Positions 119 through 49,752 of a stretch of 58,636 bases of DNA are shown here, piece after piece. Both the position numbers and the translations under genes were made by a program. The notes beneath the pieces were generated by a model. The model was given only the letters and a program-made list of their open reading frames with translations, was not told the origin of the DNA and did not search any database. Within the stretch, counting starts at the first letter, position 1, and every line of letters starts with the position of its first letter. The DNA comes from Betaproteobacteria bacterium. GTDB taxonomy: Bacteria; Pseudomonadota; Gammaproteobacteria; Burkholderiales; SG8-41. The stretch is from the NCBI GenBank assembly GCA_016868015.1, contig VGIF01000002.1, forward strand, positions 1-58,636. Reading direction: 5' to 3'.

Positions 119-907
119 GTGATCGTGGATAACCGCGGCGGCGGCTCCGGCGTGCTCGGCGTGGAGCTCGCCGCGCGCGCCGCGCCCGACGGCCACACTT
201 TGCTGTTCGGCGACGTGGGCACGCTGAGCATCAACCCTTACCTCTTTAGCAGGCTTTCCTACGATCCGCAGCGCGACTTTCACGCCATCACCAAAGTCGC
301 GGACAATCCGCTGACCTGTGTCGCCCACCCCAGCTTGCGCGTATCGACCCTGCAAGAACTGATCACTACCGCCAAAAACAAGAGCACGGACATCCGCTAC
401 GGCTCGGCGGGCAACGGCAGCATGACCCATCTTGCGGTAGCGTTGCTCGCGCAGCGCGCCGGCATCAACGCAACCCATGTGCCGTTCAAAGGCGGCGGGC
501 TCGCGTTAACCGCGCTGCTCGCGAACGAAGTCAATCTGCTGTGCATGACCACCGCCAGCGTGCGCCCGCACGTGCAGGCCGGGCGCATGGTCGCGCTAGC
601 GATGTCCACCGCGCGCCGCTCGCCCGCCATGCCCGATCTGCCGACGGTGGCCGAGCAGGGGTTGCCCGGTTATGAATCGACGCAGTGGGTCGGGCTACTG
701 GTGCCGCGCGGCACGCCGGCGCCGATCACCGGCAAGCTACACGGCGAGTTCGTGCGCATCCTCAACGCGCCCGACGTACGCGAGCGCCTGGCCAGTGCCG
801 GTGCGCAACCGGTGGGTAACACGCCCGCCGAATTCAGCGCGCAGATTCGCCGCGACGCCGATCATTACGGCAAGCTCGCCGCGAGCCTCGGCTTGAAGCT
901 CGACTAA
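119..907 (+). CDS. Bug/TctC-family periplasmic solute-binding protein, 5'-truncated copy (possible pseudogene)
   Basis: The translation carries family hallmarks (QPVIVDNRGGGSG, HVPFKGGG, PDLPTVAEQGLPGYES, NTPAEF). Similarity begins at about nt 92, directly after an in-frame TGA (86-88), with further stops at 68-70 and 50-52. About 55 N-terminal residues, including the signal peptide, are therefore absent. Confidence 0.6.
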   Translation: MIVDNRGGGSGVLGVELAARAAPDGHTLLFGDVGTLSINPYLFSRLSYDPQRDFHAITKVADNPLTCVAHPSLRVSTLQELITTAKNKSTDIRYGSAGNGSMTHLAVALLAQRAGINATHVPFKGGGLALTALLANEVNLLCMTTASVRPHVQAGRMVALAMSTARRSPAMPDLPTVAEQGLPGYESTQWVGLLVPRGTPAPITGKLHGEFVRILNAPDVRERLASAGAQPVGNTPAEFSAQIRRDADHYGKLAASLGLKLD

Positions 908-923
908 AAGCGATCCGCGCGGC

Positions 924-1892
924 TTACCTCGGCACCAGCTTGATATCGCGCACCACCTTGCCGTATTTGTCAAACTCGCTTTGCATCAGCTTGGCGAAAT
1001 ACTCCGGCGACTCGGTCCACACGTCAAGGCCGAGTTGTTCGAGTTTGGCGCGCACATCGGGTCGCTTCATCGCAGCGTTGGCTTCGCGGTTTAACAGCGC
1101 AATGATGTCCTTGGGCACTTTCGCCGGCGCGACAAAGCCGAACCAGCCGCCGGATTCAAACCCCGGCACGGTCTCCGCGATCGTCGGCAGATCCGGATAA
1201 TTCGGCGCGCGTGTCGCCTTGGCAATGCCCAGCAGGCGCACACGACCCGATTGCACGAACGGGTAGACGCCAGTAAACGAACTAAACGCCGCATTGACCC
1301 GCCCCGCCATTACGTCCTGCGTCATCGGTGCGCCGCTCTTGAACGGTACATGGATGTATTCGAAGCCTACCGCGGCGCGAAACAACTCCGCAGCCATGTG
1401 TAAAAACGCGCCTTCGCCATTGCTGCCGAACGACACTTTACCGGGATTGGCTTTCAAAAACTTGATGAACTCCGCAGTGGTTTTGTACGGCGTGCCCGGA
1501 TAGACAAACAATGCAAGGTAATTGGTGGCGATTAGCGAGATCGGCGCGAAATCCTTCAGCGCATCGTAGGGGATGTTTTTCATGGTATGCGGCAGCACCG
1601 ACATATTGCCGCCCTGCCCGCAAGCGATGGTGTGGCCATCGGGTGCCGCGTTGGCGGTCAAGTGCAGGCCGATGCTTCCACTCGCGCCCGGCCGGTTATC
1701 GGCGACGAATTGCTGGCCCAGACGCTCGCCCATGTGGTGCCCGATCAGCCGCGCGAACGTATCGCAGGCATCGCCCGGCGCCTGCGGCACGATGACTCGC
1801 ACCGGGCGCAGCGGATATTTTTGCGCCAGCGCACTGCCGGCCACACATGCGCCGGCGATCAGCGCCAACGCAACACGGTTAATCAACTTCAT
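924..1892 (-). CDS. Bug/TctC-family (tripartite tricarboxylate transporter) periplasmic solute-binding protein
   Basis: 322-aa ORF with signal peptide MKLINRVALALIAGACVAGSALA and motifs [19 protein letters not shown] and PDLPTIAE. An SD sequence (GGAGGAG) lies upstream of the ATG. Confidence 0.9.
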   Translation of the reverse strand: MKLINRVALALIAGACVAGSALAQKYPLRPVRVIVPQAPGDACDTFARLIGHHMGERLGQQFVADNRPGASGSIGLHLTANAAPDGHTIACGQGGNMSVLPHTMKNIPYDALKDFAPISLIATNYLALFVYPGTPYKTTAEFIKFLKANPGKVSFGSNGEGAFLHMAAELFRAAVGFEYIHVPFKSGAPMTQDVMAGRVNAAFSSFTGVYPFVQSGRVRLLGIAKATRAPNYPDLPTIAETVPGFESGGWFGFVAPAKVPKDIIALLNREANAAMKRPDVRAKLEQLGLDVWTESPEYFAKLMQSEFDKYGKVVRDIKLVPR

Positions 1893-1903
1893 AAGACTCC
1901 TCC

Positions 1904-1927
1904 AGTTTTATAAAATCAAACACAAGG
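1904..1927 (-). repeat. AT-rich element, weak/partial copy L
   Basis: The reverse strand reads CCTTGTGTTTGATTTTATAAAACT, matching the GT.TTTGATTTTAT core. It lies 12 nt upstream of the Bug gene ATG at 1892. Confidence 0.4.
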
Positions 1928-2160
1928 CTTTGCTGCCTTGGGCCTGCCCACTCATTCAATACCCGCCTGCCCGAAATTTGCCGCCACGCCGCTTTTCAAC
2001 GGCGCCATGTTCACGCGCCGCGGATCGCTGCCGCATGACGCCGCCCGCGGCGCGCGCAGTATATCGCTACCCCGCGCGCGCCGCGGGTGGCGTGTCGCTC
2101 AGGTTGCACGACGGCGCGCCGGTGCAAGCATCAGCGCCATCGGCCCTTTTATGAATAAAT

Positions 2161-2192
2161 CGTAAGTTATTGATTTTATTAATTATTTTATT
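2161..2192 (+). repeat. AT-rich element copy F
   Basis: Reads CGTAAGTTATTGATTTTATTAATTATTTTATT. It overlaps the stop codon of the Bug gene 2188-3153. Confidence 0.75.
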
Positions 2193-3153
2193 CGGCACGC
2201 ACGCCAGTGACTTTGACCACCCGCGCCCACTTGGTCAACTCGCTGCGTAAATGCGCGGCGAGTTGTTCGGGCGTGGTGCCGATCGCTTCGATGCCTTGCG
2301 CGTGCAACCGCTCCTGCATATCGGGCGCGCGCAACGCGCGCAAAAACTCGGCGTTTAATTTCGCGATGATTTCTTTGCGCACGCCGGCGGGCGTGAGGAT
2401 CGCGTACCAAGTCGAGGCTTCGAAACCCGGCAACGCGGCTTCGCTCATCGTCGGCACTTCGGGTAGCGTGGGCGAACGTTTGGCACCGGCGGCGGCCAAC
2501 GCGCGCATGCGCCCCGCCTTGATGTGCGGCAGCGCGCCGGGCATGGTGGGGAACCACAACGACACTTGCCCGCTCATCAAATCCGCGGCAGTTTGTGCAA
2601 TCGCCTTGTACGGCACGTGCAGCAAGTCGATACCCGCTTGCGCGCGGAACATTTCCATCACCAGGTGGCCGGAGCCGCCGCTGCCGGTGGAGGCATAAAC
2701 GATTTTGCCGGGGTTGGCTTTGGCTTGAGCGATCAACTCTTTCACCGATTTCGCCGCGAAACCGGGATGCGCAACGAGCACGTTCTGCACCGCGGCCAGC
2801 AGTGTTACCGGCGCGAAATCGCGCAGCGGGTCGTAGGCGATTTTTGGGTAGAGCGATGCATTCACCACCAGCGCCGGCGGCGACATATAAATCGTGTAGC
2901 CATCGGCGGCGGCGCGCGCGACGATTTCCGCCGCGAGATTGCCGCTGGCACCCGGGCGATTGTCCACCACTACTTGCTGAACGAGGTTCTCCGTCAATCG
3001 TTGCGCAAACAGGCGCGCCAGCAAATCGATGCTGCCACCGGCGCCGAAGCCGACGATCAAGCGGATGAGTTTATCGGGGTACGCTGCGTGCGCCGTCGAA
3101 ACGACAAGGCAACATGCAATCAAAATTTTCAAACAACGCTTAACGGCGCACAC
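2188..3153 (-). CDS. Bug/TctC-family periplasmic solute-binding protein
   Basis: 321-aa ORF with an N-terminal signal sequence and motifs [19 protein letters not shown] and PEVPTMSEA. The exact start is uncertain (GTG at 3153 or TTG at about 3132). Confidence 0.88.
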   Translation of the reverse strand: MCAVKRCLKILIACCLVVSTAHAAYPDKLIRLIVGFGAGGSIDLLARLFAQRLTENLVQQVVVDNRPGASGNLAAEIVARAAADGYTIYMSPPALVVNASLYPKIAYDPLRDFAPVTLLAAVQNVLVAHPGFAAKSVKELIAQAKANPGKIVYASTGSGGSGHLVMEMFRAQAGIDLLHVPYKAIAQTAADLMSGQVSLWFPTMPGALPHIKAGRMRALAAAGAKRSPTLPEVPTMSEAALPGFEASTWYAILTPAGVRKEIIAKLNAEFLRALRAPDMQERLHAQGIEAIGTTPEQLAAHLRSELTKWARVVKVTGVRAE

Positions 3154-4063
3154 CCGGCGTCTCCACTTTTAACCCCTGCGCGCGCCAGGCGAGAAACAGC
3201 TCCAGGTCGAGCAAATCCTGGGAACCCGCCGGCGGCATTTCCGCGCGCACGCCAAAGAAACACGCACGCAGCCGCCGGTGCAACGAACCCAGCGTTTGCC
3301 ACTCCAGACGATACGCCGGGTACGGATTGCCGTGGCCTTGGCTGATGGTGTCGTTTAACAGCTTCCTGCCGAAATTGCGGTCGTGGCAATGCGTGCAGGC
3401 GAGATTGATTTGCCCCTGGCGCGTGTAAAACAAATCGCGGCCACGCTCGAAGTTGCGTCGATTCTGGGGATCGATGGTCACCGCCATCGGCATGCCGCGC
3501 GAGTGCAGGCCCACGTACACCGTGAGCGAAAGTAACTCATCCGATTCGTAACGCAGCGGCTCGGCTTGCTGATGCCGTGTGCGGCAGATGTTGATGCACC
3601 CTTCGACATTAACGAGCCGCGCGCTGCCGGGGTCGACTTTCGGATACTTCGCGGTGACGCCCTTCATGCTCACGCGCGCATCCTGATGACAGCTCGCGCA
3701 GGATTTTCCGCTTTTGCCTGCCGGTGTCGCCCACAGCTTTTCGCCGCGGGTGGCCCACAGCATCGCCGGACTCGCGAAATCATCTTGTTGCAGCCCGCGC
3801 ACTTCGGCGCCGACGAAATCGATGCCAGACTTGAGCGGGTCGGGGCGAAAGGGTTGGGCGGCGTCGGCGGTGGTTACCGCTAAACAAAAAAGCGTGAACG
3901 AGTAAACGAGTAACCGGATGAACGTCCCCCCGCCCCAACCCTCTGCTCGGCTCCAAGTGTGCCCTTGCCCCGCGCGCGTTGCGCGCAATGCAGGGAGCCC
4001 ATTCGCGTAGATACCTATGCCCAGGGAAGAGGGGAACGCCCGGGGTGCTGCCTCACGCCTCAC
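3140..4063 (-). CDS. soxA: SoxA-type diheme cytochrome c (thiosulfate-oxidation complex subunit); maximal ORF given, true start uncertain
   Basis: Two CxxCH motifs (CASCH, CTHCH) plus a C-terminal RLRACFFG cysteine, with overall SoxA-like sequence. The signal-peptide-like stretch FIRLLVYSFTLFCLAVTTADA lies about 48 codons into the ORF with no in-frame ATG/GTG just before it. The maximal ORF starts on a GTG inside a heptamer array. Confidence 0.8.
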   Translation of the reverse strand: MRREAAPRAFPSSLGIGIYANGLPALRATRAGQGHTWSRAEGWGGGTFIRLLVYSFTLFCLAVTTADAAQPFRPDPLKSGIDFVGAEVRGLQQDDFASPAMLWATRGEKLWATPAGKSGKSCASCHQDARVSMKGVTAKYPKVDPGSARLVNVEGCINICRTRHQQAEPLRYESDELLSLTVYVGLHSRGMPMAVTIDPQNRRNFERGRDLFYTRQGQINLACTHCHDRNFGRKLLNDTISQGHGNPYPAYRLEWQTLGSLHRRLRACFFGVRAEMPPAGSQDLLDLELFLAWRAQGLKVETPGVRR

Positions 4064-18219: not shown

Positions 18220-18439
18220 AATCAACGGTGCGACCCTGAACTGGCGGGGCGTATGCGGCTTGGCTGTCAGCCCAATGCGCCATGACGCGCCTGGAAAGGC
18301 TCAACACCAACCGGGCTGCGACGAACCGTATTGAAGTCGCGCGCAACGCGGCGGTTGACCGTGCGCACGCCGCGGGATAGATTGTTTTCAGGGGAAAACG
18401 CCGCTTTCGTTTCTTCATTGCCTTGCGAGGTACTTTCAC

Positions 18440-18841
18440 ATGACCACAAGCAACGCCGGCCCAACACCCGGATTTGAGCGCCAGCCGGGCTTTCCATTGT
18501 CGTTTCACCCAACCTCGGAGCGCATACGCGTGGTGTTCGCGGGCACCACCATCGTCGATGCGGCCCACGCCATGATCATGGATGAAGATGGGCATGCGCC
18601 GGTCTACTACTTCGCGCGCGACGAGATTCGCATGGATCTTCTTAACCGCACCACACATTCCAGCCGCTGACCGTACAAGGGGGTCGCCTCCTACTGGTCG
18701 CTCCGTGTGGGCGACGCGAATGCGGACAACGTGGCCTGGAGCTACGAGCAGCCCTTGCAGCCGGTGGCGGGCATCAAGGACTTCATTGCGTTTTACCGCA
18801 ACCGGGTGGAGATCTTGCGCGAGTCAGACCAAGAGCGATAA
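18440..18841 (+). CDS. DUF427-family protein interrupted by one in-frame TGA (18668-18670) at the conserved Cys position (selenocysteine candidate or nonsense pseudogene)
   Basis: The ORF 18440-18670 and the continuing same-frame sequence read ...LLNRTTHSSR-[TGA]-PYKGVASYWSLRVGD...AFYRNRVEI. From memory, DUF427 proteins have C-P-(Y/W)-K-G-x-A-S-Y-(W/Y) at this position. Confidence 0.6.
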
Positions 18842-20570: not shown

Positions 20571-21341
20571 TTAGCGATACCCGCCGCCGCCGCTGACGTA
20601 CACCGTATCGGCGGTCATGAACTCGCACGCGTCCGAACACATGAACAACACCAGTTCGCCGATCTCGTCGGCAGTTGCGATGCGCTTCATCGGGATGCTG
20701 TTGAGCGCGCGTTCCGCTTGCGCCTTTGAGGTGCCGGACGCGGCCTGAAAGGCGGTATCAACCGATGCCGGCGAAATCGACAGGCAGCGAATGCCGCGGT
20801 CGGCGAATTCGCGCGCAACGCCCAGGGTCATGGTAACCACGGCGCCCTTGGCGCTGGCGTAGTGAACGGAGGTGCCGGGACCGCCGCGTTTGTGCGCCAT
20901 GCTGGCAATGTTAACGATGGTGCCGCCGCCGTTATCCAGCATGTGGGGCAGCACTTCCTGCATGCCGTAGAAGGTGCCCTTCACATTCAGATCGAAACTC
21001 AAATCCCACAGCGCATCGTCGATTTCCAGAAATGAAGCACGCTTGAGCGCACCGCCCGCCGAGTTGAGCAGGAAGTGGATCCGGCCATAGCGCTCGCGCC
21101 CCGCGCCGATGAATCGGCGCACGGCTTCGCGCTGGGTGACATCGATCGGCACGAAAATGGCATCGCCACCGCGGGCGGCGACCTGCCGCGCGGTTTCTTC
21201 CCCGCCGGGCACGTTGATATCGCCGCACACAACGCGCGCGCCTTCGGCGGCGAAGATCAGCGCCGTGGCACGGCCAATGCCGCTGCCGGCGCCGGTAATG
21301 GCGATAGTCTTGCCCTAGAAGTAGTTTGCAGTCCTGGCCAT
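20571..21341 (-). pseudogene. SDR-family oxidoreductase with in-frame TAG at codon 9 (21315-21317)
   Basis: The minus strand reads AAGGAcatcATG GCC AGG ACT GCA AAC TAC TTC TAG GGC AAG ACT ATC GCC ATT ACC GGC GCC GGC AGC GGC ATT GGC. This translates to MARTANYF*GKTIAITGAGSGIG, followed by an otherwise intact SDR. The longest stop-free ORF (from the GTG at 21230) lacks the Rossmann glycine motif. Confidence 0.75.
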
Positions 21342-21374
21342 GATGTCCTTGACGAGTGTTGTTGCGCGCTGGCG

Positions 21375-22373
21375 TCAGTTAAGTGAAAGACCAATGGCCT
21401 TGACGACCTTGATCCATTTATCCAGATCGGCGCGGATCACCGCGCGAAATTCCTCCGGGGTCGAGCCGACCAATTGCCAGCCCTCGGCTTCGAACCGCTG
21501 GGTCATATCCGGCGCTTTGATGGCCGCGGCCGCGCCCGCGCTGATTCTTTTGACCAAAGCCGGCGGCGCCTTGGACGCGATCACCATGCCATAGTATTGA
21601 TTGAGCTCGTAACAGGGCAAGCCCAGTTCTGCCACCGTGGGCAGTTCGGGCACGGCGCACATGCGCTCGCGCGAGGTGACGGCCACCGGCCGCACACGAG
21701 CGGCGGGCAAATGCGGGCGGGCGCTCGCCAGCGTGACGAAGCCGATTTGCACTTCGCCGGCGATGGTGGCAACCAGCGCCGGTGCGCCGCCCTTGTAGGG
21801 AACGTGGTTCAGTTTCACACCGGCCATCTGGCTCACGACTTCCCACCCCAGGTGCTGCAAGCTGCCGGTACCCGGCGTACCGTAATTTAGCTTGCCGGGG
21901 TGCGCGCGGGCGTACGCCAGCAGTTCCTTGAACGTCGTGAACGGCACCGCGGGGTTGGTGTACACCAGATAGGAAAGTGCAGTAGCCTGACTGACGGCCG
22001 CGACATCCTGAGTCACATCGTACGGCCGCTTCGCCGAGGGCACGGAATTGATGACATGATCCGCCGACATCATCAACAGCGTATAGCCGTCGGGCGCCGC
22101 CTTGATCGCAATGTCAAAGGCAATCACGCCCGATGCGCCAGGGCGGTTGTCGACGATGATTTGCTGCCCCCAGGCCTGCGTGAGCTTTTGCGCGATGGCG
22201 CGGGTGGTGGTATCCAGTGCGCCGCCGGGCGCAACCGGCACGATCAGGCGTATGGGCCGGCTTGGAAATTCGGTGCTTGCCTGCGCCTTAACGGCGAGCG
22301 CGGCCCCGCCAAGAATCAAACCCAACAGTAAGCTTGCGGATCTTGACATTGCTCCTCCCGGCGTTGCCTGCAC
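21375..22373 (-). CDS. Bug/TctC-family periplasmic solute-binding protein
   Basis: Has a signal peptide plus [19 protein letters not shown] and [12 protein letters not shown]. Confidence 0.9.
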
Positions 22374-26063: not shown

Positions 26064-27044
26064 TCACGGCTTGGCGAACGCCCCTATCTCCTGAAAAAAA
26101 GCCCGGTAATGCTCGACACGCTGCGCGAGCAATTTGGCGTACTCGGGGCTCGCGAGATAGCGGTCTTCATAAAAGTGCCTTCTCGCGTGTTCCTGCCATG
26201 CACTCGATTTGTGCGCGCGTTCCAGCACTTTTTCCATCATCGCCGCGATTTCTTTCGGCACCCCGACGGTATAGACAAATCCGCGTAGCGTGCCCGCGTC
26301 GAACTTGTAGCCGACCTCGGCCACCGTCGGCAGATCCGGCAGTTGCGACATGCGCCTTAACGAAGTCACGGCTAGCGCGCGCAGTTTTTTGGCTTCGAGC
26401 AGCGGCAAACCCTCGCTCAGATTCTCGGTGGTGAAATGGGTATGGCCGCCCGCCACCGACAACACTGCTTCGCCGCCGCCTTTAAAGGTGACGAATTTGA
26501 ACTTCGCGCCGGGCGCGAACTTCTCCAGCATGTGTATGACCTCGCGGCCCGAGCCCAACGGATTGGTGATCGCGCCAACGATGGTGTCAGGCGCCTTGCG
26601 CGCGGCCTCGACCAGATCGCGTAAGGTTTTGTAGGGTGAATCGACGCCGACCATAATCGCCTGCGGATCGACGGCAAACAACGCTAGCGGCGTGTAATTC
26701 TCAAGCCCGATATTGACGTCGGCGCGCGCCGCCATGATGGCCACCGTGCCGGTCGCGGCCATCATGGTGTAAGGGTCGCCGCGCCTGGTTTGAAAGTAGT
26801 TGTAGGCGATCAAGCTGCCGCCGCCGGTGCGGTTTTGCACCACCATGGGTTGTGGCAAGAGCTTTTCGCGCCGCACGATGTCGGCAAGCATGCGTGCGTA
26901 GATATCGGTGCCGCTGCCGGCCGAGGTCGGTGAAATCAGCTCGATCGGTTTACCGGGAAACGCCTGGCCGAGGGCCGTGCCACCACTTGCCGCGGCGAGC
27001 ACACCACTGAGTAGTACCGCCAGTGCGTTCAAGAATTTCGCCAT
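26064..27044 (-). CDS. Bug/TctC-family periplasmic solute-binding protein
   Basis: Has a signal peptide plus VQNRTGGGS, FKGGGEA and PDLPTVAEVGY. Confidence 0.88.
   Translation of the reverse strand: MAKFLNALAVLLSGVLAAASGGTALGQAFPGKPIELISPTSAGSGTDIYARMLADIVRREKLLPQPMVVQNRTGGGSLIAYNYFQTRRGDPYTMMAATGTVAIMAARADVNIGLENYTPLALFAVDPQAIMVGVDSPYKTLRDLVEAARKAPDTIVGAITNPLGSGREVIHMLEKFAPGAKFKFVTFKGGGEAVLSVAGGHTHFTTENLSEGLPLLEAKKLRALAVTSLRRMSQLPDLPTVAEVGYKFDAGTLRGFVYTVGVPKEIAAMMEKVLERAHKSSAWQEHARRHFYEDRYLASPEYAKLLAQRVEHYRAFFQEIGAFAKP

Positions 27045-45908: not shown

Positions 45909-45919
<11 letters not shown>
45032..45919 (-). CDS. CPBP-family intramembrane glutamic endopeptidase (CAAX protease-like)
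   Basis: Multi-TM protein with EELVFRGYL and HLWN...H motifs. The ATG at 45919 overlaps the metH 3' end by 11 nt. Confidence 0.75.
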
Positions 45920-49640
<3,721 letters not shown>

Positions 49641-49667
49641 CACGTTCTCCTTTCATTCGAAAAAAGT

Positions 49668-49752
49668 TCGTGAGCGCCGTTGCGGGGTAGGTCGCCGAGC
49701 CTGGCGGATGGGGCTGTAAAGCCAACATCCGTCGCAACGCTCCTCGGCGGCG
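49668..49752 (-). promoter_or_regulatory. SAH (S-adenosylhomocysteine) riboswitch-like leader of metH
   Basis: The minus strand reads CGCCGCCGAGGAGCGUUGCGACGGAUG...CAUCCGCCAGGCUCGGCGAC...CGCAACGGCGCUCACGA. Proposed pairings are P1 GCCGAG/CUCGGC, P2 CGGAUG/CAUCCG, and a 3' tail CGCAAC-GG-CGCUC complementary to GAGCG-UUGCG (pseudoknot). This matches my recollection of the SAH riboswitch consensus (CGAGGAGCGYUGCRAC...CAGGCUCGG...AACGGCGCUCA). Confidence 0.75.

What the first reader, a model, noticed from the sequence alone, without database searches (positions are those of the whole stretch)
18440..18841. DUF427 gene with an in-frame UGA exactly at the conserved Cys: selenocysteine candidate or nonsense pseudogene
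The frame reads ...DEIRMDLLNRTTHSSR-[TGA 18668-18670]-PYKGVASYWSLRVGDANADNVAWSYEQPLQPVAGIKDFIAFYRNRVEILRESDQER*, continuing without a frame change for a total of 133 codons. From memory, DUF427 (PF04248) proteins carry a conserved C-P-(Y/W)-K-G-x-A-S-Y-(W/Y) block, so the UGA replaces that Cys. That is the classic Sec/Cys signature. Downstream, GUCGCC (18683-18688) can pair with GGCGAC (18710-18715), with an inner UAC/GUG pairing and a 10-nt loop UGGUCGCUCC containing GGUC. This is only loosely reminiscent of bacterial SECIS apical loops, and the spacing is about 7 nt longer than in E. coli fdhF. I do not recall DUF427 among described selenoprotein families. The alternative is a simple TGC/TGT to TGA nonsense mutation, which is more plausible given that two neighbouring frames carry in-frame TAG stops.
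Basis: partly seen in the sequence, partly recalled or inferred. Interest (0 to 1): 0.72.

Follow-up and report, generated by a model that had tools for sequence, protein, structure and literature searches.

The report
Selenocysteine-containing DUF427 protein gene
The in-frame TGA is almost certainly a selenocysteine codon, because every one of about 30 independently assembled relatives has it and a conserved RNA hairpin sits just downstream, so DUF427 looks like a selenoprotein family missing from current catalogues and its one always-conserved cysteine is probably the reactive residue.

Summary
The frame 18440-18841 (+) encodes a DUF427 protein (PF04248, E=1e-30). It is interrupted only by TGA at 18668-18670, at the family's conserved Cys (188 Cys, 3 Ser and 26 TGA among 217 homologous gene copies).

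The pseudogene alternative is rejected:
- Every member of one monophyletic clade carries TGA at this codon. The clade comes from separate soil, sediment and long-read assemblies and goes down to 55% protein identity.
- The 52-56 codons after the TGA stay open, end at the same place, and are under purifying selection (pN/pS 0.44, against 0.34 upstream).
- The 21 nt at 18695-18715 are identical in 21 of 23 distinct sequences, synonymous sites included.

This block folds as a 7-bp hairpin with loop CGUGU, 33 nt after the UGA, and meets the published bacterial SECIS consensus.

DUF427 is absent from a May 2026 catalogue of 119 prokaryotic selenoprotein families, and no NCBIfam model matches it.

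Not shown: selA, selB, selC or selD in the same genome, and actual selenium incorporation. Verdict: a real selenoprotein gene, and a new member of a known kind.

The parts
18440..18841 (+). Complete coding sequence of a 133-residue DUF427 selenoprotein (ATG 18440, Sec codon 77, TAA 18839-18841)
   Evidence: PF04248, E=1e-30. The orthologous ORFs keep the same start, length and end in all complete relatives.
18427..18430 (+). Probable Shine-Dalgarno sequence GAGG, 9 nt before the ATG
   Evidence: Read directly. This is an inference and was not tested.
18668..18670 (+). UGA read as selenocysteine, at the position of the family's conserved Cys. It is followed by C, the UGA-C context.
   Evidence: TGA in every clade member, TGC or TGT in 188 other homologs. 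The next codon is CCG in 23 of 23 Sec genes, against 47% CCG in Cys genes.
18695..18715 (+). Block TGGTCGCTCCGTGTGGGCGAC, conserved at the nucleotide level (codons W86-D92)
   Evidence: Identical in 21 of 23 distinct sequences, including six consecutive synonymous sites. Cys homologs that encode the same SLRVGD peptide use other codons.
18697..18715 (+). Most likely SECIS apical hairpin: 5' arm 18697-18703 (GUCGCUC), loop 18704-18708 (CGUGU), 3' arm 18709-18715 (GGGCGAC)
   Evidence: Energy -10.7 kcal/mol. All cells pair in 23 sequences. Pair 18700-18712 occurs as G-C x21, A-U x1 and G-U x1. There are 33 nt between the UGA and the loop, and G then U at loop positions 2-3, which fits the bSECIS model quoted in PMC13188914.
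18680..18691 (+). Possible small spacer hairpin (GGGG/CUCC around a 4-nt loop)
   Evidence: 98.7% of cells pair, but only wobble-type changes are seen. Weak evidence.
18671..18710 (+). Alternative 40-nt SECIS-like fold that starts right after the UGA. It is mutually exclusive with the hairpin above.
   Evidence: RNAalifold consensus. 99.3% of cells pair with no double compensatory change. The loop UCCUACU has no G. This fold does not explain the invariance of 18711-18715.

Best explanation
The gene encodes a genuine selenoprotein.

Mechanism:
- Translation starts at 18440. When the ribosome reaches UGA-77, a hairpin in the mRNA recruits SelB-GTP-Sec-tRNA(Sec). The hairpin is most likely 18697-18715: a 7-bp stem with loop CGUGU, starting 26 nt after the UGA.
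- Selenocysteine is inserted instead of termination. The product is a 133-residue DUF427 protein with Sec in the motif (C/U)-P-(Y/H)-K-G.
- Almost all other family members have Cys at this position, so the residue is probably the catalytic redox or nucleophilic centre of this fold of unknown function.

Shown here:
- the UGA/Cys correspondence;
- conservation of the UGA across one monophyletic clade;
- selection on the downstream codons;
- RNA-level constraint and a hairpin that fits the consensus.

Inferred, not shown: SelB dependence, presence of the Sec machinery, selenium incorporation, and the chemistry of the protein.
For: 1. About 35 protein clusters at 68-86% identity are all called as exactly 76 aa, meaning gene callers stop at the same TGA.
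2. DNA of 26+ loci from different assemblies shows TGA at the same codon. The ORF beyond it is intact for 52-56 codons with conserved sequence.
3. Host GC content ranges from 54% to 71%, so these are different organisms.
4. The Sec genes form one clade in a neighbour-joining tree (19 of 19 unique sequences). The lowest identity within the clade is 55%, and the best identity to any Cys homolog is 58%.
5. pN/pS is 0.34 upstream and 0.44 for codons 93-129, with pS 0.54.
6. Of 41 amino-acid-invariant degenerate codons, 8 never change codon. All 8 lie in codons 78-92, and six are consecutive at 87-92. The hypergeometric probability, from my own arithmetic on those counts, is about 5e-6.
7. The hairpin pairs in every cell, with G-C, G-U and A-U at one pair through synonymous changes. 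The same fixed hairpin averages +0.4 kcal/mol in 177 Cys homologs, and only 6% reach -7.5.
8. TGA ends 19 of 46 ordinary genes in the window, so the genetic code is standard.
Against: - No selA, selB, selD or tRNA-Sec gene is in the 58.6-kb window or in 12 related loci. I could not search the rest of any host genome.
- Support from covariation rests on a single base pair. The shuffle control reaches the observed value in 40 of 500 trials.
- A competing 40-nt fold is equally compatible with the variation seen.
- The 33-nt spacing is near the upper limit of the published 16-37 nt range.
- No Rfam family matches the region.
- There is no experimental evidence of selenium in the protein.
Confidence: 0.88

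Rival explanations
1. The gene is a nonsense pseudogene. A TGC/TGT to TGA mutation killed it and the downstream frame is a decaying remnant.
For: A neighbouring SDR gene (20571-21374, minus strand) has an in-frame TAG eight codons after its ATG, so disrupted genes do occur on this contig.
Against: The same TGA is present in all 26+ clade members, which have diverged to 55% identity. None has a frameshift or a further stop in the 52-56 downstream codons. Downstream pN/pS is 0.44 at pS 0.54. A pseudogene would not keep a 21-nt block invariant at synonymous sites.
Confidence: 0.01
2. The TGA is a sequencing or assembly error at 18670.
For: None specific. This is a single contig and no reads are available.
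Against: The same codon appears in independent assemblies from JGI, ENA, NCBI and Logan, including long-read contigs of 1-8.7 Mb.
Confidence: 0.005
3. UGA is read through without selenocysteine. Either near-cognate tRNA inserts Trp or Cys, or the hosts use a code in which UGA is a sense codon, and the conserved hairpin merely slows termination.
For: The UGA-C context is known to terminate poorly (my own knowledge). The Sec machinery was not found in the DNA available. JGI translated one ortholog with W at this position (P0088).
Against: 19 of 46 window genes end in TGA. P0088's codon is TGA and the W comes only from the gene call. The residue aligns with an almost invariant Cys, which is the classic Sec/Cys pattern. 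The hairpin has the features of a SelB-binding element, G-U in a small apical loop at 16-37 nt.
Confidence: 0.05
4. Termination at UGA-77 is the normal outcome. A 76-residue N-terminal half-domain is the product, the C-terminal part is made separately or not at all, and the hairpin acts as a regulatory or terminator-like element.
For: All gene callers predict a 76-aa protein, and sometimes a separate 41-57-aa C-terminal ORF. The window has a GTG at 18707.
Against: The 12 codons between the UGA and any possible restart (PxKGxASYWSLR) are the most conserved protein segment in the family and carry its signature motif. Their pN/pS is 0.215. The DUF427 fold is one domain that spans both halves (model pLDDT 96.8, TM 0.76-0.87 to 3DJM). 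No T-run follows the hairpin.
Confidence: 0.03

Closest known systems
Bacterial selenoprotein genes with an intragenic SECIS, such as E. coli fdhF
   Same: An in-frame UGA followed by C. Cys-containing homologs. A stem-loop in the coding sequence just downstream, with G-U in a small apical loop.
   Different: The protein family is different (DUF427). The loop begins 33 nt after the UGA, against about 18 in fdhF. The loop is CGUGU rather than GGUC, and no bulged U is evident. SelB binding has not been tested.
Computationally predicted selenoprotein forms of DUF families (DUF3179, DUF1573, DUF166, DUF523, DUF1858) listed in PMC13188914 Table 1
   Same: The type of evidence is the same: a Sec/Cys pair, a conserved UGA flanked by conserved coding sequence, and a SECIS-like hairpin. 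Function is unknown in each case.
   Different: PF04248/DUF427 is not among the 119 families or subfamilies listed. The motif U-P-(Y/H)-K-G has no nearby second Cys, so it is not a CxxU/UxxC redox motif.
DUF427 / PF04248 (crystal structure 3DJM, Rhodobacter sphaeroides; described as a beta-tent fold in PMC4287342)
   Same: Full-length HMM match. The same conserved motifs are present. A Cys homolog models onto 3DJM with TM 0.76-0.87.
   Different: All described members have Cys, rarely Ser, at the motif position. This clade has UGA.
MsrB, whose mammalian form MsrB1/SelR is a selenoprotein (my own knowledge)
   Same: PMC4287342 places MsrB in the same beta-tent fold class as DUF427. Both have Sec and Cys forms of a single key residue.
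   Different: No sequence similarity, and Foldseek found no PDB match other than 3DJM. DUF427 lacks the zinc site. Whether the Sec/Cys positions are equivalent was not testable here. This is a lead only.

Membership tests
Bacterial selenoprotein gene (Sec-UGA plus bSECIS) | In-frame UGA aligned with Cys in homologs | tested here: met
   188 Cys, 3 Ser and 26 TGA at the same aligned codon.
Bacterial selenoprotein gene (Sec-UGA plus bSECIS) | The UGA is conserved among orthologs, with coding conservation on both sides | tested here: met
   All clade members carry TGA. The downstream ORF is preserved. pN/pS is 0.34 upstream and 0.44 downstream.
Bacterial selenoprotein gene (Sec-UGA plus bSECIS) | Stem-loop meeting the bSECIS model: loop 3-9 nt, stem 4-16 bp, G in the first two loop positions, 16-37 nt from the UGA, MFE <= -7.5 kcal/mol | tested here: met
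   7-bp stem, loop CGUGU, 33-nt spacing, -10.7 kcal/mol. This is an in silico result. A competing fold exists.
Bacterial selenoprotein gene (Sec-UGA plus bSECIS) | selA, selB, selC (tRNA-Sec) and selD in the same genome | not testable with these tools
   None in the window or in 12 related loci. The rest of the genomes could not be searched. An attempt through SelA homologs and contig length failed.
Bacterial selenoprotein gene (Sec-UGA plus bSECIS) | Selenium demonstrated in the protein | not testable with these tools
   Needs an experiment.
DUF427 (PF04248) | Pfam HMM score above the gathering threshold across the whole domain | tested here: met
   105.9 bits against a cut-off of 22.1, profile positions 1-92 of 93.
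DUF427 (PF04248) | Fold of the solved member 3DJM | tested here: met
   Sequence hit to 3DJM at E=1.2e-11. An AF2 model of a 47%-identical Cys homolog has pLDDT 96.8 and TM 0.76-0.87 to 3DJM. The window protein itself was not modelled.
Nonsense pseudogene | The disabling stop is private to one lineage, with relaxed constraint downstream | tested here: not met
   The stop is shared by the whole clade, and the downstream codons are under purifying selection.
Genome-wide UGA reassignment (genetic codes 4 or 25) | UGA is not used as a terminator in the genome | tested here: not met
   19 of 46 window genes end in TGA.

The most novel reading that the evidence does not exclude
DUF427 is a previously unrecognised selenoprotein family. 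The Sec form marks the single conserved Cys of this widespread bacterial and fungal domain as a catalytic redox or chalcogen-transfer residue. It arose once and has persisted in uncultured, apparently aerobic Burkholderiales-like bacteria. Its SECIS is unusually distant from the UGA and almost invariant at the nucleotide level, which may represent a distinct class of SelB-binding element.
Probability: 0.45. Interest if true: 0.65.

Novelty: new member of a known kind. Interest (0 to 1): 0.6.

Why it matters
1. It adds a family to the prokaryotic selenoproteome that is absent from the latest catalogue, from NCBIfam, and from every gene call examined. All databases store the gene as a 76-residue fragment.
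2. Sec/Cys pairs are an established pointer to catalytic redox cysteines. This one gives DUF427 its first functional handle: mutate or label the residue of the C-P-(Y/F/H)-K-G motif.
3. The near-invariant 21-nt hairpin is a compact, testable SECIS. The natural variants G-C, G-U and A-U at one pair already suggest the compensatory experiment.
4. The 76-aa DUF427 entries in public databases should be merged with their downstream ORFs and re-annotated.

Tried and rejected
- **Folding the window alone** gave z = -0.98, which is uninformative.
- **Rfam** at gathering threshold and at a permissive E-value found nothing at the site.
- **Looking for Sec machinery:**
  - No tRNA genes in the window or in 12 loci.
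  - Pfam on 45 window proteins found no SelA, SelB, SelD or FdhA.
  - I fetched E. coli selA, then a Burkholderia cenocepacia SelA from a PLSDB record, and searched the protein collection for a hit whose longest contig was the 8.7-Mb contig carrying the gene. Only the 120 best hits, all Burkholderia, were listed, so this led nowhere.
- **A crude scan for a second in-frame-TGA gene** in the window and five long loci found only adjacent genes that share a frame. The filter also missed the window's own DUF427 gene, so a negative result says little.
- **Fold search against the PDB** found only 3DJM. There was no link to MsrB or other beta-tent enzymes, so no mechanistic transfer is possible.
- **Gene neighbourhood:** only two relatives share the downstream glyoxalase/SDR genes. 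Otherwise the context varies, so there is no operon-based functional inference.
- **P0088**, a 130-aa homolog with W at the site, looked like a TGG variant. Its DNA has TGA.
- **Literature hits for 'DUF427'** in the Spurio, Menshen and Salmonella T6SS papers I opened were DUF4276/4277/4279 word-start matches, not DUF427.

Full report
**Observation**

The window has an ORF from ATG 18440 to TAA 18839-18841 on the + strand. It is interrupted only by TGA at 18668-18670. With Cys placed at that codon, the 133-residue product matches Pfam PF04248 (DUF427) at E=1e-30 over essentially the whole profile. It also matches the one solved member, 3DJM, at E=1.2e-11, with the TGA opposite the Cys of 'CPLKGEASYY'.

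**Chance, error or decay?**

A search of 5.8 billion proteins returned about 35 clusters at 68-86% identity that are all exactly 76 residues long. Independent gene callers stop at the same codon in each. Full-length homologs of 118-142 aa are only 41-49% identical.

I fetched DNA for relatives from GTDB species genomes, JGI metagenomes, and ENA, Logan and NCBI assemblies.
- Every member of the close group has TGA at the same codon.
- Each is followed by an open frame of 52-56 codons that ends at the equivalent place and encodes P(Y/H)KGxASYWSLRVGD....
- Among 217 gene copies with a complete domain segment, the codon is TGC 154, TGT 34, TGA 26 and Ser 3.
- The TGA genes form a single clade in a neighbour-joining tree (19 of 19 unique sequences). 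Identity within the clade goes down to 55%. The best identity to any Cys form is 58%.
- Host DNA ranges from 54% to 71% GC, and gene neighbourhoods differ. These are different organisms, not copies of one sequence.
- One apparent exception, P0088 with Trp at the site, is a JGI translation of a TGA codon.

**Selection**

These figures come from 13 unique full-length genes.

| Region | pN/pS | pS |
|---|---|---|
| Codons 2-76 (upstream) | 0.34 | 0.59 |
| Codons 78-92 | 0.215 | 0.16 |
| Codons 93-129 | 0.44 | 0.54 |

The part after the TGA is therefore translated and constrained. This excludes a pseudogene and a sequencing error. It also argues against a product that ends at residue 76, because the most conserved peptide of the family lies directly after the TGA. 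TGA terminates 19 of 46 ordinary genes in the window, so the genome does not use a code in which UGA is a sense codon.

**RNA element**

Synonymous variation collapses just downstream of the TGA. Of 41 codons whose amino acid never changes and is degenerate, eight never change codon. All eight lie in codons 78-92, and six are consecutive at 87-92. My arithmetic on those counts gives a hypergeometric probability of about 5e-6.

The block TGGTCGCTCCGTGTGGGCGAC (18695-18715) is identical in 21 of 23 distinct sequences. Cys-type homologs that encode the same SLRVGD peptide use other codons.

The block folds as a 7-bp hairpin:
- 5' arm GUCGCUC (18697-18703), loop CGUGU (18704-18708), 3' arm GGGCGAC (18709-18715).
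- Energy is -10.7 kcal/mol.
- There are 33 nt between the UGA and the loop.
- G then U occupy loop positions 2-3.

This satisfies each criterion of the published bacterial SECIS model: loop 3-9 nt, stem 4-16 bp, G in the first two loop positions, spacing 16-37 nt, and MFE <= -7.5 (PMC13188914).

The only two lineages that vary in the stem change the same pair, 18700-18712. L180 has G-U, and L164-L166 have A-U. All of these changes are synonymous. This is the expected compensatory path, but it is a single pair, and the shuffle control reaches the observed value in 40 of 500 trials. The invariance is therefore the stronger evidence. Threading the same hairpin onto 177 Cys-type genes gives a mean of +0.4 kcal/mol, and only 6% reach -7.5.

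Two caveats apply:
- RNAalifold prefers a different, mutually exclusive 40-nt fold (18671-18710) that starts right after the UGA, as in fdhF. It pairs in 99.3% of cells, but only through wobble-type changes. Its loop has no G, it was derived from the same alignment, and it leaves the invariance of 18711-18715 unexplained.
One of its pairs is lost in 18 of 23 relatives.

**Mechanism proposed**

This is standard bacterial Sec decoding. SelB-GTP-Sec-tRNA(Sec) is tethered by the hairpin and inserts Sec at UGA-77. The following C is invariant and gives the UGA-C context. That context is a weak terminator and is shared with the E. coli fdh genes (my own knowledge).

The product is a DUF427 protein with Sec in U-P-(Y/H)-K-G. 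There is no second Cys nearby, so this is not a CxxU/UxxC dithiol-type motif. By analogy with other Sec/Cys pairs, I infer that this residue is the catalytic redox or nucleophilic centre.

The fold gives no further help. A high-confidence model of a Cys homolog (pLDDT 96.8) matches only 3DJM in the PDB. The literature says only that DUF427 is a zinc-less beta-tent fold of unknown function (PMC4287342). The gene is not in a conserved operon. In the window it sits between an amine oxidase gene and a glyoxalase-family gene whose ATG is 12 nt after the TAA, and only two relatives share that arrangement.

**What could not be shown**

No selA, selB, selD or tRNA-Sec gene is in the window or in the fetched flanks. 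I had no means to search the rest of the host genomes, and an indirect attempt failed. The host appears to be an uncultured Burkholderiales bacterium. The best named CcmF relatives, at about 75% identity, are Burkholderiales or Betaproteobacteria MAGs, and there are several TctC (Bug) receptor paralogs. No experiment supports selenium incorporation.

**Comparison with what is known**

A May 2026 review lists 119 prokaryotic selenoprotein families and subfamilies with their domain identifiers. PF04248/DUF427 is not among them. It is also absent from the following:
- the GOS tables;
- the deep-Sep supplements;
- NCBIfam, where no model matches at all;
- any paper that mentions both DUF427 and selenocysteine. 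The single hit was a word-start match to DUF4277.

BSepDB itself and subscription-journal papers could not be checked. I therefore classify this as a new member of a known kind: a new selenoprotein family that uses the ordinary mechanism.

**Scores**

| Item | Value |
|---|---|
| Confidence that this is a Sec codon | 0.88 |
| Interest | 0.6 |

The finding is solid, testable and useful for annotation and for DUF427 function. The mechanism itself is conventional.

Noticed in passing
window 49665-49751 (-): An SAH riboswitch (RF01057, 63.5 bits; gathering score 37) lies directly upstream of a 1244-aa B12-dependent methionine synthase gene (MetH, 45909-49643, minus strand).
   Followed up: partly
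window 20571-21374 (-), TAG at about 21316-21318: A short-chain dehydrogenase gene has an in-frame TAG eight codons after its ATG, just before the GKTIAITGAGSGIG Rossmann motif. It could be a real nonsense mutation, a sequencing error or a downstream start.
   Followed up: partly
L004, L008, L012-L016, L019-L023, L025, L027, L028 and others (Cys-type loci): In many distant genomes (Rubrobacter, Binatia, Rhodospirillales and others) two DUF427 genes sit in tandem, with their Cys codons about 372 nt apart. Both have Cys. The Sec clade has a single copy.
   Followed up: no
L174 270-662 (protein P0088); database entries P0059, P0084 and P0091: Public gene calls split this gene into a 76-aa N-terminal protein and separate 41-57-aa C-terminal ORFs. 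In one JGI case the TGA is translated as Trp. This is a systematic mis-annotation of the whole clade.
   Followed up: yes
L161 8110-9846: In the 8.7-Mb contig, the Sec-DUF427 gene is preceded by a homocysteine S-methyltransferase-family gene (PF02574) and a UbiE-type methyltransferase gene. From my own knowledge, PF02574 enzymes include selenocysteine methyltransferases. This may be coincidence.
   Followed up: no
window 119-4063, 21375-22373 and 26064-27044: Five TctC/Bug-family solute receptor paralogs occur within 58 kb, which is typical of Burkholderiales. CcmF's nearest named relatives are only about 75% identical MAGs, so the host lineage is uncultured.
   Followed up: partly
L175-L178 and L169 flanks: In several long-read contigs the Sec-DUF427 gene lies among IS elements and transposases (rve, DDE_Tnp_1, IS110, IS21) and oxygenase genes (TauD, PhyH, luciferase-like). 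This suggests a mobile or accessory catabolic region.
   Followed up: no
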